Under the pieces are notes generated by a model. It made no database searches. It was not told the origin of the DNA and saw only the letters and a list, made by a program, of their open reading frames with translations. A stretch of DNA of 42,114 bases from a virus (taxonomy: Duplodnaviria; Heunggongvirae; Uroviricota; Caudoviricetes), in IMG/VR virus record IMGVR_UViG_2561511241_000009, positions 1-42,114 of that record; one strand, written 5' to 3'. Positions 27,719 through 39,319 of this stretch are shown here, one piece after another; the first letter of the stretch is position 1; each line of letters begins with the position of its first letter. A program made the position numbers and the translations under genes.

Positions 27719-27795
27719 GTGGCATTAGCTCAGTCGGACAGAGCAACCGCCTTCTAAGCGGTTGGTCGCAGGTTCGAATCCTGCATGCCACGCCA
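27719..27795 (+). tRNA. tRNA-Arg (anticodon UCU)
   Basis: Manual fold: acceptor GTGGCAT/ATGCCAC, D-stem GCTC/GAGC, anticodon stem ACCGC/GCGGT with loop CTTCTAA, T-arm GCAGG-TTCGAAT-CCTGC, discriminator G, encoded CCA. Confidence 0.9.
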
Positions 27796-33478: not shown

Positions 33479-33539
33479 CTTTACCCTCGCTTATCCACAT
33501 AACTTATTGATTACATTGATAACTAAAAAGATCGTCGAT

Positions 33540-34004: not shown

Positions 34005-34787
34005 TTACTTGATAAATCCTGCCGCCTTTCCCCGCCTGTATTCCTCCATCAGCCACTGCGCCGGTGTTATTCCCCCCAGGGTGGCGGCGTTAGGCATGCA
34101 CCCGAAACTTCGCCCTGGTGGATGGTAAACGTCTCTCCCTGTGTCCGGAGGCGTACTCATGGGTTCTGGCTTTGCCTGTATGCTGATCACCGGATCGGGT
34201 ATCTGCTGTCCGGAAGCCACCTTTTTCGCCCAATCATCGAGCAGCCTGCGCGCGTGTTTCTCAACCTCAATCTCGCTAAGCTGGCGCTGATACATTGCGC
34301 GGCGGGTATCACATACAACCCAGTACATAACCGGATGTCGCCACGGGAATCTTTCTGGACCACCAGGATATAAACTTTTTTCCTTGCTGTACCGATGAAA
34401 CTCCGCCATCACATCGTCAATGGTGACGCCAAGAACCATCTTGCTGTCTTTGCACCACTTGATGAATTGCCCAGGCGACGGCCAGAACGGAGATTCACTG
34501 GCGCGGGCGTGGCGCATACCAGCGTTAACCTGTTCCATTGTAGTGATCCCATTCTCCAGAAACGCAAGCATCCATTGTTTTCGAAATTCGTTTAGCTTTC
34601 CCTGTTCGCTGATAGCAGCGATGCTGCCTGGAAATGCAGCCTGCAACTGGACAAACATTTCGTTGAAAATTCTTGCAACCTGCTCCTTCTTTGCCCTTTC
34701 ATCGTCAGCAGAAGCAACCACCGTCGAGTGGTCATGCCCACCACGAAAGCGATAGTACTCATTAAGAAGTTCTGGAGTTGATTTCAT
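34005..34787 (-). CDS. lambda P-like replication protein (helicase loader)
   Basis: Segment FRKQWMLAFLENGITTMEQVNAGMRHAR...PSPGQFIKWC matches recalled lambda P core; GAGG RBS before Met at 34787. Confidence 0.65.
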   Translation of the reverse strand: MKSTPELLNEYYRFRGGHDHSTVVASADDERAKKEQVARIFNEMFVQLQAAFPGSIAAISEQGKLNEFRKQWMLAFLENGITTMEQVNAGMRHARASESPFWPSPGQFIKWCKDSKMVLGVTIDDVMAEFHRYSKEKSLYPGGPERFPWRHPVMYWVVCDTRRAMYQRQLSEIEVEKHARRLLDDWAKKVASGQQIPDPVISIQAKPEPMSTPPDTGRDVYHPPGRSFGCMPNAATLGGITPAQWLMEEYRRGKAAGFIK

Positions 34788-35619
34788 CCCACACCTCATC
34801 TATCCAGTCAGTGTTATGCCAGTCAAGGCTCTTTCTGACTTCACCTGATTTCTGTCTACAGAACTGGATGCGCCTTGCCAGCTTCTGCTCCCACTGCGCC
34901 TGATGGTATGCCTTACCCTCAGCCATCCAGTAAATTCTGAACTCTGCAAGTTCCTGTGCCGTTGGCAGACTGTCCAGGTAGATCCCCTGCAATGAGCTTT
35001 TCCGAAGAAAGTCATCTGATGGCTGCCATTGTTCATGCATGACAAATTTGCCTAATTGCCCTGGCCCACCAGGAGGAACAAAGTTATTCATCACGGCGTT
35101 GTTTGCGCCGGGGTCATGAGGCACAGAATCCCCGTTTTTTGTCCTGCTCTCCCTCTCTTGGTTAAATGACTGGTTATATGACTGGTTCTGGATCCCGTTT
35201 TTGGGATCATTCAACATCCCGTTTTTGGGATCATTCAACATCCCGTTTTTGGGATCATTCAACATCCCGTTTTTGGGTATATTCCCGTTTTCGGTAACAT
35301 TACCGTTTTCGGGTTCATTGCCCCCCTCCCGGTTGCCTTTAATGTTCCCGTTTTTGGTTATATTAAGAGAGAAAACCCGCACTCTTTTTGTCGCTCCCTT
35401 TCTCTCTCCGGTATCTGAAATAAGCCCCATTTTCATGAGCGATATAAGCCCGGCCTGCACGGTTTTTTTATTCAGACAAGTGTCTTTAACGAGACGTTCT
35501 ATGCTGGGGTAGCAGAGGTTATATTCATCGGCTCTGTCAGCCATCGAGAGCAGTATGAGCTTTAATGACGAGCTACCTGGATCTGTCTCCCAGGCCCAAT
35601 CTGTTGCATGTCTGCTCAT
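34762..35619 (-). CDS. lambda O-like replication initiator with internal iterons
   Basis: N-terminal wHTH-like domain, repeat-encoded linker (PKNGMLND x3), C-terminal domain; directly upstream of P-like gene. Confidence 0.6.
   Translation of the reverse strand: MSRHATDWAWETDPGSSSLKLILLSMADRADEYNLCYPSIERLVKDTCLNKKTVQAGLISLMKMGLISDTGERKGATKRVRVFSLNITKNGNIKGNREGGNEPENGNVTENGNIPKNGMLNDPKNGMLNDPKNGMLNDPKNGIQNQSYNQSFNQERESRTKNGDSVPHDPGANNAVMNNFVPPGGPGQLGKFVMHEQWQPSDDFLRKSSLQGIYLDSLPTAQELAEFRIYWMAEGKAYHQAQWEQKLARRIQFCRQKSGEVRKSLDWHNTDWIDEVWDEINSRTS
35192..35320. repeat. iteron array (candidate replication origin) inside the O-like gene
   Basis: Three perfect tandem 24-bp units ATCCCGTTTTTGGGATCATTCAAC (35192-35263) plus degenerate copies; each unit contains the palindrome ATCCC-N6-GGGAT. 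Confidence 0.65.
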
Positions 35620-35634
35620 GATTAATCTCCGCTA

Positions 35635-35835
35635 TCAGCTTGAATGTTGTGGGGAGGAATTAATCATGATCTGCTTAATCTCTGCCCTGATGCGACGGTT
35701 TGATTCCATGGTGCACTCAACACAGTGTCCGTTGTAAACCCAGCGTTCACTGTCATGTCCGTGCTTACATGGTTTTCCGGTGTAGTAGCGTTTAAGTCCG
35801 CGCTTTGCGGCATCAATACGTGTAATGATTTCCAT
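35635..35835 (-). CDS. small zinc-ribbon protein (hypothetical regulator)
   Basis: CKHGH...CVEC Cys/His cluster; AGGG RBS before Met at 35835. Confidence 0.4.
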   Translation of the reverse strand: MEIITRIDAAKRGLKRYYTGKPCKHGHDSERWVYNGHCVECTMESNRRIRAEIKQIMINSSPQHSS

Positions 35836-35925
35836 GGTAAGCCCTGTTATTAGTATTGGGATTACGGTCATTTTGTGCTGACACAAAAAAAAGATCAACC
35901 AGATTTGGTTTTTTATTACCTTTGA

Positions 35926-35940: not shown

Positions 35941-35985
35941 GAAAAGACCGCCGGGTGGCGGTCTACAGAGGGTTGTAGCTGGATA

Positions 35986-36216
35986 TCATGAGTAGAAGAA
36001 GTATGCCAGTTCTGCTTTTGAGCGCAGCCATTGTCTTGTTTTACAGGCTTTAAAAAGCCCATTCATCAATACTTTACCTGGCATTTTGCGCTTACCTGTT
36101 AAGTGAGTATGGATATAGTGACTCGTCGTTCCGGCTTCCTGTGCGAAGGCTTCACGCTCATCCGGAGTAAGTGCAAGCCAGTGCTTTTTGAAATCGAAAT
36201 GTCCGTTATCGCTCAT
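35986..36216 (-). CDS. Cro-like HTH regulator (YdaS/DicC-like)
   Basis: 76 aa; first gene of leftward early operon, divergent from repressor; putative HTH AFAQEAGTTSHYIHTHL. Confidence 0.5.
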   Translation of the reverse strand: MSDNGHFDFKKHWLALTPDEREAFAQEAGTTSHYIHTHLTGKRKMPGKVLMNGLFKACKTRQWLRSKAELAYFFYS

Positions 36217-36252
36217 AGCTATTGCCTGATATTTATTTCAGATAATAAATAT

Positions 36253-36315
36253 TCACCCATAAGGTAACAAAAATCAAGGATAGTTACCTATGAGGTGCAT
36301 TTACCTGTTGGGTAA
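36253..36315. promoter_or_regulatory. OR-like operator cluster (three palindromes) in the divergent repressor/cro region
   Basis: TCACCcataaGGTAA (36253-36267), TTACCtatgaGGTgc (36284-36298), TTACCtgttgGGTAA (36301-36315). Confidence 0.65.
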
Positions 36316-38381: not shown

Positions 38382-39319
38382 GCAACAACATCGCAAACAT
38401 CAACGCACCAGTAGACACAGCAATCGCTGGCACTGCTGCAACTATTTTCAGCCCAGACGGCTTGAACCAACTGATGAAATTCGCCGAGGTAATGGCGCAA
38501 AGCCGCGTAACGGTACCGGCGCACCTCGCCGGGAAACCAGCTGATTGCATGGCCGTGGCAATGCAGGCTGCGCAGTGGGGAATGAACCCGTTTGCCGTGG
38601 CTCAGAAAACCCATGTTGTGAACGGCACGCTAGGTTATGAAGCCCAATTAGTAAACGCAGTTATCTCAACAATGTCGCCAACAAAAGATCGCATCAACTA
38701 CGAGTGGTTCGGGCCGTGGGAACGCGTGATCGGTAAGTTTGTTGAGAAAACATCCAAAAACGGCAATCCGTATATCGCACCAGGCTGGACTATAAAAGAC
38801 GAAGAAGGCTGCGGTGTTCGCGTATGGGCAACCATGAAGGGAGAGGATCAACCTCGAGTGCTCGAGTTAATGCTGTCTCAGGCACAGGTAAGAAACTCCA
38901 CACTTTGGGCCAGCGATCCGAAACAACAACTCGCATACCTTGCGACAAAACGCTGGTCTCGCTTGCACTGTCCTGACGTAATCATGGGCGTCTATACACC
39001 TGACGAATTACAGGAAACGGCACCGCGCGTTGAGCGAGACATTACTCCGCAAACAACTACGGCTGCGGGAATTAATAGTCTGATCAACGCTAAAACAGTG
39101 AAAAAGCCTGATGAGCAAACGCGTAAAGCGGATAGCCGTGATCCAGAAGAAATGCTGATGGCCTTTACCAGCGCAGCGATGAATTACAGCACTGTCTCCG
39201 AACTGGATAAGGCTTACAAATACATTGCACAAAAACTTTCAGATGATGACGAACTGCTGGCAAAAGCCACCGACGTTTACAGCGTTCGTCGGGAAGAATT
39301 AAACGAAACATCTATGTAA
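38378..39319 (+). CDS. RecT-like single-strand annealing protein
   Basis: Follows exonuclease with overlapping start; composition and size fit RecT/Sak-type proteins; assignment from memory. Confidence 0.5.
   Translation: MSNNIANINAPVDTAIAGTAATIFSPDGLNQLMKFAEVMAQSRVTVPAHLAGKPADCMAVAMQAAQWGMNPFAVAQKTHVVNGTLGYEAQLVNAVISTMSPTKDRINYEWFGPWERVIGKFVEKTSKNGNPYIAPGWTIKDEEGCGVRVWATMKGEDQPRVLELMLSQAQVRNSTLWASDPKQQLAYLATKRWSRLHCPDVIMGVYTPDELQETAPRVERDITPQTTTAAGINSLINAKTVKKPDEQTRKADSRDPEEMLMAFTSAAMNYSTVSELDKAYKYIAQKLSDDDELLAKATDVYSVRREELNETSM

What the first reader, a model, noticed from the sequence alone, without database searches (positions are those of the whole stretch)
35192..35320. Iteron-type replication origin embedded in the O-like initiator gene
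Three perfect 24-bp tandem repeats plus degenerate copies lie in frame in the linker region of the O-like gene, each containing ATCCC-N6-GGGAT. This mirrors lambda, where the origin iterons sit inside gene O, and the next gene is a P-like helicase loader.
Basis: partly seen in the sequence, partly recalled or inferred. Interest (0 to 1): 0.5.

Follow-up and report, generated by a model that had tools for sequence, protein, structure and literature searches.

The report
Replication origin inside prophage initiator gene
An E. coli prophage carries a row of seven near-identical short DNA sites in the middle of its replication-initiator gene, and comparison with about 150 related genes shows they are conserved as DNA, not as protein, so this is very probably an ordinary lambda-style replication origin in a less-studied initiator family.

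Summary
At 35192-35277 there are 3.6 perfect copies of a 24-bp unit, each holding ATCCC-N6-GGGAT. Degenerate copies lie at 35264-35315 and 35345-35360. That makes seven CCVAAAACGG cores within 163 bp, against 0.17 expected in the whole window.

They lie on the minus strand, in frame, between the two folded domains of a 285-aa initiator (34762-35619). A lambda-P-type helicase loader follows (41% identical to lambda P).

The origin reading is well supported, though only by comparison:
- 61 of 76 diverse homologues, from Vibrio and Acinetobacter to Desulfovibrio, carry at least 4 copies of a 10-mer at the same place. Controls give 1 of 59 and 0 of 72.
- In 58 of 71 arrays the same DNA motif is read in two or three reading frames, so the repeat is a DNA element.
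- In 71 close relatives, third-codon diversity in the cores is about 4.5 times lower than in the folded domains.
- Site number varies: 1-5 perfect sites among relatives.

"O-like" needs qualifying. The N-domain is Pfam HTH_36, not Phage_rep_O, and the C-domain is DnaT-like. A second repeat class (AACCAGTCAT, 35159-35187) marks a candidate unwinding region that is only moderately AT-rich. Binding and origin activity are untested.

Verdict: a new member of a known kind, of modest interest.

The parts
34762..35619 (-). Replication-initiator gene (285 aa). It has an N-terminal HTH_36 winged-helix domain (aa 18-67), a linker that holds the repeat array (aa 87-157), a DnaT-type ssDNA-binding domain (aa 189-261) and a C-terminal tail ending LDWHNTDWIDEVW.
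   Evidence: ORF list. Pfam HTH_36 E 2.4e-10 and DnaT PF17948 E 1.1e-14. PDB DnaT C-domain 4OU6/6AEP, E about 3e-19. PHROG phrog_1032 'replication initiation protein', E 5e-107. PGAP annotates the same CDS in E. coli EC361.
35192..35279 (-). Four sites spaced 24 bp apart, proximal to the candidate unwinding region. Three are perfect (sense strand GATCCCAAAAACGGGAT, at 35192-35207, 35216-35231 and 35240-35255). The fourth has a changed outer arm (35264-35279). Each has dyad arms ATCCC/GGGAT around an A5 tract, and the perfect ones carry GATC.
   Evidence: TRF 100% match, 3.6 copies. Pattern search. Among 80 close relatives the number of perfect sites is 1-5, with a mode of 2.
35282..35315 (-). 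Two degenerate sites spaced 18 bp apart (sense TTACCGAAAACGGGAA and AACCCGAAAACGGTAA).
   Evidence: TRF period-18 array. Family D2 of the repeat finder. CCGAAAACGG hits at 35285-35294 and 35303-35312.
35345..35360 (-). Isolated promoter-proximal degenerate site (sense TAACCAAAAACGGGAA). A 22-nt G-rich spacer separates it from the rest of the array, and that spacer is the most polymorphic stretch of the array in relatives.
   Evidence: the repeat finder D2. Core hit at 35348-35357. Polymorphism pattern.
35150..35191 (-). Candidate unwinding region, immediately after the last site. The sense strand reads CAGAACCAGTCATATAACCAGTCATTTAACCAAGAG, which is 2.4 copies of a 12-nt unit, and continues into a purine-rich run.
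   Evidence: TRF 35159-35187, period 12. The 30-mer starting at 35184 (35184-35155) is 63% AT with dG -35.1 kcal, against a regional mean of -40.2. Zero third-position diversity among 71 relatives. In relatives, homologous AGAAYCNNYCA repeats occur at period 12 (11 loci), 13 (10 loci) or 11 (2 loci), followed by an AT excess of +0.10 to +0.20. phiV10 has three copies.
35127..35144 (-). Possible eighth, very degenerate site (sense GACAAAAAACGGGGATTC) on the far side of the candidate unwinding region. Uncertain.
   Evidence: Read directly from the sequence. The repeat finder D7 pairs 35131-35142 with 35347-35358 at 92%. Not tested further.
34005..34787 (-). Lambda-P-type helicase-loader gene. 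It overlaps the initiator's 3' end by 26 nt.
   Evidence: Pfam Phage_lambda_P E 4.2e-53. 41% identity to lambda P, E 1e-47. phrog_109 'P-like helicase loader', E 2e-87. PGAP CDS.
36242..36270 (-). pR-like promoter candidate, placed so as to transcribe the cro-like gene, the small gene, the initiator and P, and so to read through the array.
   Evidence: Consensus scan TTGTTA-17-TATTAT, 9 of 12. It sits in the divergent repressor/cro-like intergenic region. This is a consensus match only.
35945..35964 (-). tR1-like intrinsic terminator candidate between the cro-like gene and the genes leading to the initiator.
   Evidence: Eight-pair stem with 6 GC pairs plus a T run. The phiV10 record annotates a putative rho-independent terminator at the equivalent place.

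Best explanation
The array is the initiator-binding part of the prophage's origin of replication, embedded in the initiator gene as in lambda.

Proposed mechanism, by analogy with lambda:
1. Dimers of the initiator's N-terminal winged-helix (HTH_36) domain bind the seven dyad-symmetric sites (ATCCC-AAAAAC-GGGAT). The sites all point the same way and each has a central A-tract, so the bound DNA is bent or wrapped into an O-some-like complex.
2. Strain from this complex, helped by rightward transcription through the gene, opens the adjacent region at 35150-35191 (AACCAGTCAT repeats followed by a purine-rich run).
3. The initiator's C-terminal part (a DnaT-type ssDNA-binding domain plus a tail) holds the opened DNA and recruits the P-like protein with host DnaB bound to it. 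DnaB is then loaded and replication starts.

What is shown: the anatomy, the statistics, conservation at the DNA level across the family, the domain identities and the gene context. What is inferred: binding, bending, the site of opening, the contact with P and origin activity.
For: 1. Seven cores lie within 163 bp on one strand, against 0.17 expected in 42 kb. TRF scores them as perfect 24-bp units.

2. The position and form match ori-lambda. Lambda's iterons (ATCCCTCAAAACGAGGGA) lie at nt 349-433 of the 900-nt O gene. Here ATCCCAAAAACGGGAT lies at nt 259-428 of 858.

3. The array is a family feature. Of 76 distinct homologues, 61 have at least 4 copies of a 10-mer (at most 1 mismatch) in nt 241-540. 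The controls give 1 of 59 (last 300 nt of the same ORF) and 0 of 72 (300 nt downstream).

4. The motif does not depend on reading frame. Site spacings of 17, 22 and 25 nt are common. In 58 of 71 arrays the motif is read in at least 2 frames, and in 34 in all 3. One DNA site is translated as PKNG, PKTE or SQKR in the same gene.

5. Among 71 close relatives, third-codon nucleotide diversity is 0.0066 in the cores and 0.000 in the 12-mer region. It is 0.030 in the N-domain, 0.031 in the DnaT domain and 0.051 in the non-core parts of the array.

6. The sites are dyads across the family, for example AACAGTCCC-AAAAAC-GGGACTGTT in L094. This fits binding by a dimer.

7. The wHTH-plus-array block always sits in replication modules, whatever the partner: P-like loaders, a DnaC/IstB-like AAA+ protein, a Toprim-DnaB fusion, or a DnaB-like helicase.

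8. The same module, at 94-96% nucleotide identity, is present in viable phages such as phiV10.

9. Site number varies between relatives, as it does between lambda (4 iterons) and Stx phages (6 iterons) (PMC7466680).

10. A PHROG family (phrog_15931, 482 aa) matches both the DnaT-like domain and the P-like protein in different parts of its profile. This suggests natural fusions of the two.
Against: - There is no experimental evidence of binding or origin activity for this family. I found none in the searchable literature.
- In the window itself all seven exact cores, and the possible eighth site, are read in one frame. The frame-independence argument therefore comes from relatives, not from this array.
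- The candidate unwinding region is only 63-67% AT. It is not the least stable stretch nearby, since the intergenic promoter regions are far less stable.
- Low diversity in the cores could partly reflect homogenisation among repeats, and it rests on few sites (21 and 14 third positions).
- The initiator is not a detectable sequence homologue of lambda O by BLASTP or Pfam, so the mechanism is transferred by analogy.
Confidence: 0.78

Rival explanations
1. The sites do bind the initiator, but they act mainly in regulation rather than as the place where replication starts. Possible roles are autoregulation, a roadblock, copy-number control or handcuffing. The true origin would lie elsewhere in the prophage.
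For: Iterons in plasmids also serve in control. In Stx phages the two extra iterons are only weakly bound yet still matter (PMC7466680). The region next to the array is only moderately AT-rich.
Against: In every characterised lambdoid module the in-gene array is the origin (PMC7466680; PMC8022706). In relatives a conserved second repeat class and an AT-rich stretch always follow the last site, which is the expected anatomy of iterons plus an unwinding element. No other repeat cluster of this kind exists in the window.
Confidence: 0.1
2. It is only a peptide repeat, or a neutral slippage-prone minisatellite, in a disordered Asn/Gly/Pro/Lys-rich linker, with no function at the DNA level.
For: In the window the repeat is in frame and encodes PKNGMLND three times. 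Copy number varies among relatives, as expected for a slippage-prone repeat. Perfect unit identity points to recent expansion.
Against: In homologues the same DNA motif is read in two or three frames (58 of 71 arrays) at spacings of 17, 22 and 25 nt, so the peptide is not what is conserved. The sites have dyad symmetry, which is meaningless for a peptide. Synonymous positions in the cores are depleted of polymorphism, while the inter-site spacer changes amino acids freely. The array persists across Gamma-, Beta- and Deltaproteobacteria-type hosts.
Confidence: 0.05
3. The half-sites of neighbouring units form hairpins (GGGAT-N8-ATCCC followed by a T run) that act as tandem intrinsic terminators against antisense transcription on the plus strand.
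For: The terminator scan lists three such hairpins at 35202-35269 on the plus strand.
Against: The stems are weak (6 pairs, only 3 of them G-C). The total count of terminator-like sites in the region is at chance level (4 found against 3.5 expected). The hairpins follow trivially from tandem dyad sites. Relatives with 17- or 22-nt spacing and different inter-site sequences would not keep them.
Confidence: 0.02

Closest known systems
Bacteriophage lambda ori-lambda with genes O and P
   Same: An array of dyad-symmetric sites with a central A-tract (TCCC...AAAAC...GGGA) lies in the middle of the initiator gene, in the linker between an origin-binding N-domain and a C-terminal part. A less stable, purine-rich stretch follows, and then a P-type helicase loader gene (41% identical to lambda P). 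The whole unit lies in the rightward early operon downstream of cro-like and repressor genes (PMC7466680).
   Different: There are seven sites rather than four, each 16-17 bp rather than 18-19 bp, and three units are perfectly identical. The N-domain is Pfam HTH_36, not Phage_rep_O. The C-domain is DnaT-like rather than lambda-O-type, and only the terminal xNTDWI motif is shared. The AT-rich region is much weaker and is built from 12-nt direct repeats.
Stx phages 933W and P27 (lambda-type origin with six iterons)
   Same: Iteron number differs between close relatives, and the initiator's linker length changes with it. Here there are 1-5 perfect sites and the gene length changes in 24-bp steps (PMC7466680).
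   Different: Those are true lambda O proteins and lambda iterons. Here both the protein family and the site sequence differ.
P22 gene 18 and phage L gene 18 in-gene repeat arrays
   Same: These are lambdoid initiator genes with their own in-gene repeats, inferred to be origins from sequence alone. Phage L has six imprecise 11-bp repeats, TGTCCAACGGA (PMC8022706). That motif resembles the GTCCCAACAATGG-type cores seen here in Acinetobacter relatives.
   Different: Their partner is a DnaB-type helicase (gp12), not a P-type loader. I did not test whether phage L gp18 belongs to the same HTH_36 family.
Phage phiV10 gp43/gp44 (Uetakevirus) and related E. coli prophages
   Same: This is the same replication module at 94-96% nucleotide identity. 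It has six cores and three 12-mers, and it is annotated by similarity as a replication initiation protein (DnaT family) plus a putative replication protein P.
   Different: phiV10 has a different C-terminal tail and one fewer perfect site. The record annotates no origin.
E. coli DnaT (primosomal protein I)
   Same: The C-terminal ssDNA-binding domain is clearly homologous (aa 189-261 against PDB 4OU6/6AEP, E about 3e-19).
   Different: DnaT has no sequence-specific DNA-binding N-domain and acts in PriA-dependent replication restart, not at an origin.

Membership tests
Lambda-type phage origin (iterons plus unwinding region inside the initiator gene, with a helicase-loader partner) | Four or more direct repeats of a dyad-symmetric site of about 16-20 bp, in one orientation, in the middle of the initiator gene | tested here: met
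   Seven cores at 35195-35357, all on the minus strand, with arms ATCCC/GGGAT, at nt 259-428 of the 858-nt gene.
Lambda-type phage origin (iterons plus unwinding region inside the initiator gene, with a helicase-loader partner) | An AT-rich, easily melted region directly on the promoter-distal side of the last iteron | tested here: inconclusive
   In the window, 35155-35184 is 63% AT with dG30 -35.1 against a mean of -40.2 (z about 1.5), which is weaker than lambda. Across 33 relatives there is an AT excess of +0.10 to +0.20 at +15 to +45 nt from the end of the array.
Lambda-type phage origin (iterons plus unwinding region inside the initiator gene, with a helicase-loader partner) | The repeats are constrained as DNA, not merely as the peptide they encode | tested here: met
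   The motif is read in at least 2 frames in 58 of 71 homologous arrays. Third-position diversity is 0.0066 in cores against about 0.030 in the folded domains.
Lambda-type phage origin (iterons plus unwinding region inside the initiator gene, with a helicase-loader partner) | A gene for a P-type helicase loader immediately downstream | tested here: met
   PF06992 E 4e-53, and 41% identity to lambda P.
Lambda-type phage origin (iterons plus unwinding region inside the initiator gene, with a helicase-loader partner) | The initiator binds the repeats, and the fragment supports initiator-dependent replication | not testable with these tools
   This needs EMSA or footprinting and a plasmid origin assay. 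I found no published data for this family.
Lambda O protein family (Pfam PF04492 Phage_rep_O) | The N-terminal origin-binding domain matches Phage_rep_O | tested here: not met
   The window protein matches HTH_36 (E 2.4e-10), and there is no PF04492 hit even at E up to 10. Lambda O matches PF04492 at E 6e-36. There is only an indirect link: both N-parts match phrog_678 and phrog_345.
Lambda O protein family (Pfam PF04492 Phage_rep_O) | A C-terminal P-interacting domain homologous to that of lambda O | tested here: not met
   BLASTP is not significant, and only LDxxNTDWI is shared (E 0.12). The PHROG families matched by the two C-terminal parts do not overlap. The Edwardsiella phage Edno5 homologue does have the lambda-type C-domain.
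DnaT (primosomal protein I) family | The C-terminal ssDNA-binding three-helix domain (PF17948) | tested here: met
   Pfam E 1.1e-14. PDB 4OU6, 6AEP and 2RU8, E 3e-19 to 3e-17.
DnaT (primosomal protein I) family | DnaT-type N-terminal domain and full-length architecture (179 aa, no HTH) | tested here: not met
   PDB matches cover only aa 188-263 of the query, which corresponds to DnaT residues 85-160. The N-terminus is HTH_36.
Iteron plasmid origins (RepA, pi, TrfA type) | Iterons outside the rep gene, with DnaA boxes and an AT-rich region alongside | tested here: not met
   The array is inside the initiator ORF. The nearest DnaA-box consensus (TTATCCACA, 33491-33499) is about 1.7 kb away, and the count of such boxes in the window is at chance level.

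The most novel reading that the evidence does not exclude
The initiator is a hybrid of a lambda-type origin binder and the host replication-restart protein DnaT. After the winged-helix domains assemble on the iterons, the DnaT-type domain would form a filament on the single strand exposed at the conserved 12/13-nt repeats and pass P-DnaB onto it. That would be an origin-specific, PriA-independent 'mini-primosome'. More generally, the wHTH + iteron + 12/13-mer block would be an ancient mobile origin cassette whose DNA sites dictate the linker peptide in any of three frames. The cassette would be plugged onto interchangeable C-domains and helicase or loader partners across Proteobacteria.
Probability: 0.2. 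Interest if true: 0.5.

Novelty: new member of a known kind. Interest (0 to 1): 0.3.

Why it matters
It gives a concrete, testable origin (about 35127-35360) for a replication module present in roughly a tenth of complete E. coli genomes (535 of 5426) and in phiV10-type phages, which are used as reporter phages.

The family-wide result, one DNA site translated in three frames within one gene, is a clean demonstration that an embedded cis-element can shape a protein linker. It also offers a simple computational criterion for calling in-gene origins in other phage initiators.

The pairing of a DnaT-type domain with a lambda-P loader is a small open question about how these initiators hand over DnaB.

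None of this overturns current understanding. It extends the lambda paradigm to another initiator family.

Tried and rejected
- Single-sequence AlphaFold2 model of the initiator: mean pLDDT 38.5 and pTM 0.25, so unusable. No fold search was run.
- BLASTP of the initiator against lambda O: no significant alignment. Pfam at E up to 10 gave no Phage_rep_O hit.
- Literature searches found nothing on this family's origin. I searched for the exact core CCAAAAACGG, for phiV10 with origin, for HTH_36 with iteron, and for DnaT-like phage initiators.
- The Weigel and Seitz 2006 review of phage replication modules is not held in the library.
- DnaA boxes: four TTWTNCACA matches in the window against 3.9 expected, and none within 1.2 kb of the array. 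Not part of the feature.
- Plus-strand hairpin 'terminators' within the array: rejected as a by-product of tandem dyad sites.
- Covariation between the recognition helix and the iteron sequence. The core is too conserved across the family (CCVAAAACGG, CCAACAATGG, and a CCCCCGAA type in Desulfovibrionaceae), and the differences follow phylogeny, so no independent test was possible.
- A strongly AT-rich unwinding element like lambda's was looked for and not found in the window.

Full report
**1. Observation**

The stated coordinates are exact. Tandem Repeats Finder gives 35192-35277 with period 24, 3.6 copies and 100% matches (unit ATCCCGTTTTTGGGATCATTCAAC). It also gives an overlapping degenerate array at 35265-35319 with period 18, and a separate 12-bp repeat at 35159-35187.

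The repeat finder aligns seven copies, including one outside the stated range at 35342-35365. TCCC-N6-GGGA occurs three times in the 42-kb window, all three here.

The 10-nt core CCVAAAACGG occurs eight times in the window. Seven of those lie at 35195-35357 on the minus strand. Dinucleotide-preserving shuffles give 0.17 expected, and none of 100 shuffles reached eight.

The array lies in a minus-strand ORF, 34762-35619 (285 aa), and is in frame. The 24-bp unit encodes PKNGMLND three times.

**2. What the genes are**

- The ORF has an N-terminal HTH_36 domain (aa 18-67) and a DnaT DNA-binding domain (aa 192-258). The repeats (aa 87-143) therefore sit in the inter-domain linker.
- The C-domain aligns to solved DnaT C-domains (4OU6, 6AEP) at E about 3e-19.
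- PHROGs places the protein in phrog_1032, 'replication initiation protein' (E 5e-107).
- The downstream gene is Phage_lambda_P (E 4e-53), 41% identical to lambda P.
- The window is a prophage identical to one in E. coli EC361. It lies next to guaA, with a repressor gene and a divergent cro-like gene upstream of the initiator.
- The same module occurs in 535 of 5426 complete E. coli genomes and, at 94-96% identity, in phiV10-type phages.

**3. Is it 'O-like'?**

By architecture and context, yes. By sequence family, not detectably.

- Lambda O matches Pfam Phage_rep_O. The window protein does not, even at E up to 10.
- BLASTP between the two is not significant, apart from a shared C-terminal LDxxNTDWI.
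- An indirect link exists. The N-terminal parts of both proteins match the intermediate profiles phrog_678 and phrog_345, 'replication initiation O-like'.
- The family is modular. The Edwardsiella phage Edno5 homologue has the same N-domain and array, but a lambda-O-type C-domain with P.
- Other members pair with a DnaB-like helicase (AP22), a DnaC/IstB-like AAA+ protein (L088) or a Toprim-DnaB fusion (L087).
- In the members scanned, a DnaT-type C-domain always went with a P-type partner (the window, L086, L094, L096).
- phrog_15931 matches both the DnaT-like domain and the P-like protein in different parts of its profile, which hints at natural fusions of the two.

**4. Comparison with ori-lambda**

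Lambda's four annotated iterons (ATCCCTCAAAACGAGGGA and variants) lie at nt 349-433 of the 900-nt O gene and are followed by the AT-rich tract (PMC7466680).

Here the sites (sense strand ATCCCAAAAACGGGAT) lie at nt 259-428 of 858. They have the same TCCC...A-tract...GGGA dyad form. They are followed by CAGAACCAGTCATATAACCAGTCATTTAACCAAGAG and a purine-rich run.

The whole array is strongly A-rich on the sense strand, with an AT skew of -0.38 to -0.46 on the plus strand.

**5. DNA element or peptide repeat? This is the key test**

I collected 80 close relatives from viral contigs and 80 diverse relatives from one genome per species, plus four phages. The hosts include Vibrio, Pseudoalteromonas, Marinomonas, Acinetobacter, Edwardsiella, Providencia and Desulfovibrionaceae.

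(a) Among 76 distinct diverse genes, 61 carry at least 4 copies of a 10-mer (at most 1 mismatch) within nt 241-540. The controls give 1 of 59 for the last 300 nt of the same ORFs and 0 of 72 for 300 nt downstream.

(b) Site spacings are often 17, 22 or 25 nt, so the same DNA motif is read in different frames. In L105, ACAGTCCCAAAAACGGA is translated TVPKTE, then QSQKRN, then a variant as SSNIGT. L088 reads SPKNG, IPKTE and PSQKR. In all, 58 of 71 arrays use at least 2 frames, and 34 use all three.

(c) The family consensus is a long dyad, for example AACAGTCCC-AAAAAC-GGGACTGTT in L094. That only makes sense as a protein-binding DNA site.

(d) In 71 unique close relatives, nucleotide diversity at third codon positions is:

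| Region | Third-position diversity |
|---|---|
| Iteron cores | 0.0066 |
| 12-mer region | 0.000 |
| N-domain | 0.030 |
| DnaT domain | 0.031 |
| Array, non-core positions | 0.051 |

The spacer between the first and second sites changes amino acids freely.

Together these results exclude a pure peptide repeat for the family. In the window itself all cores happen to be in one frame, so for this array the argument rests on homology.

**6. Copy-number variation**

Gene lengths among E. coli relatives differ in 24-bp steps: 858, 834 and 810. Among the 80 close relatives the number of perfect GATCCCAAAAACGGGAT sites runs from 1 to 5. The mode is 2 and the window has 3. phiV10 has 2 perfect sites, 6 cores and three copies of the 12-mer, against two in the window. 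This parallels the four iterons of lambda against the six of Stx phages (PMC7466680).

**7. Second repeat class and the unwinding region**

In the 34 relatives that share the in-frame CAGAAYC boundary, the last site is followed by 2-3 copies of AGAAYCNNYCA. The period is 12 in 11 loci, 13 in 10 loci and 11 in 2 loci, so again the repeat is often out of frame. In Vibrio phage Her, for example, AGAACCAGTCAT is read as QNQS and then as EPVI.

An AT excess of +0.10 to +0.20 follows at +15 to +45 nt.

In the window this region is only 63-67% AT, with a 30-nt stacking energy of -35.1 kcal against a regional mean of -40.2. It is a plausible unwinding element but not a strong one.

**8. Mechanism, as inferred**

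Initiator dimers would bind the seven phased, A-tract-centred dyads and wrap the DNA. This, together with transcription from a pR-like promoter candidate (36270-36242) through a tR1-like terminator candidate (35964-35945), would open 35150-35191. The DnaT-type domain and C-terminal tail would engage the single strand and the P-DnaB complex.

BLAST coverage classes suggest that the last 88 nt or so of the gene (the tail) travel together with the P gene, independently of the rest of the gene. That fits a tail-P contact, but I did not test it formally.

**9. Known or new?**

Calling an in-gene repeat array the 'likely origin' is routine for lambdoid phages, as for P22 and phage L gene 18 (PMC8022706). 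The proteins here are already annotated as replication initiator and P. I found no paper that defines the origin of this HTH_36/DnaT-type family.

The finding is therefore a correct, well-supported call of a new member of a known kind. The family-wide reading of the sites in three frames and the 12/13-mer element are small additions.

Confidence that this is the initiator-binding origin array is about 0.78. Interest is 0.3.

Noticed in passing
window 35191-35256: Four GATC (Dam) sites lie within 66 bp because each perfect site begins GATCCC and the last ends GGGATC. The window average is one GATC per 275 bp (153 sites, no overall excess). Edwardsiella phage Edno5 sites also carry GATC, but Vibrio phage Her sites do not. 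Dam or SeqA might influence origin use in the enterobacterial members.
   Followed up: partly
window 34762-34850 (initiator C-terminal tail) and 34005-34787 (P-like gene): BLAST hits in E. coli fall into three classes: full length, lacking the last 88-110 nt of the gene, or matching only those last 70 nt or so plus the start of P. The tail therefore seems to recombine as a unit with the P gene, independently of the rest of the initiator. phiV10 has a different tail.
   Followed up: partly
window 34762-35619 and 34005-34799 (PHROG matches): phrog_15931 (482-position profile, unknown function) is matched by the initiator's DnaT-like domain at profile positions 200-274 and by the P-like protein at positions 353-452. 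This suggests that fused DnaT-like/P-like proteins exist in other phages.
   Followed up: no
window 35945-35964 (minus strand): A strong intrinsic-terminator-like hairpin (AGACCGCCACCCGGCGGTCT plus a T run) lies between the cro-like gene (35986-36216) and the small gene (35635-35844), in the position of lambda tR1. The phiV10 record annotates a putative terminator at the same place.
   Followed up: partly
window 35635-35844 (minus strand): A small conserved ORF sits directly upstream of the initiator (69 aa as scanned here; PGAP aa from the internal ATG at 35835, ending at 35635). It is phrog_1081, of unknown function, and its Cys/His-rich sequence (CKHGH...CVEC) looks like a zinc ribbon. It occupies the place where lambda has cII. 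Function unknown.
   Followed up: no
window 27719-27795 (plus strand): A tRNA-Arg (anticodon TCT) is encoded within the prophage, between the structural and early regions.
   Followed up: no
window 33491-33499 (plus strand): A single perfect DnaA-box consensus (TTATCCACA) lies about 1.7 kb from the array, between the DUF1064 and Ea22-like genes. The count of such boxes in the window is at chance level.
   Followed up: partly
window 38754-38763 (plus strand): The only copy of the iteron core (CCAAAAACGG) outside the array lies inside the RecT-family recombinase gene. It is probably a chance match.
   Followed up: no
L160 (Desulfovibrionaceae) nt 271-400 of the initiator ORF: A GC-rich version of the array has seven copies of CGCCCCCGAA-type sites at spacings of 17, 17, 17, 22, 22 and 22 nt, read in all three frames. 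The architecture therefore survives a complete change of base composition.
   Followed up: partly
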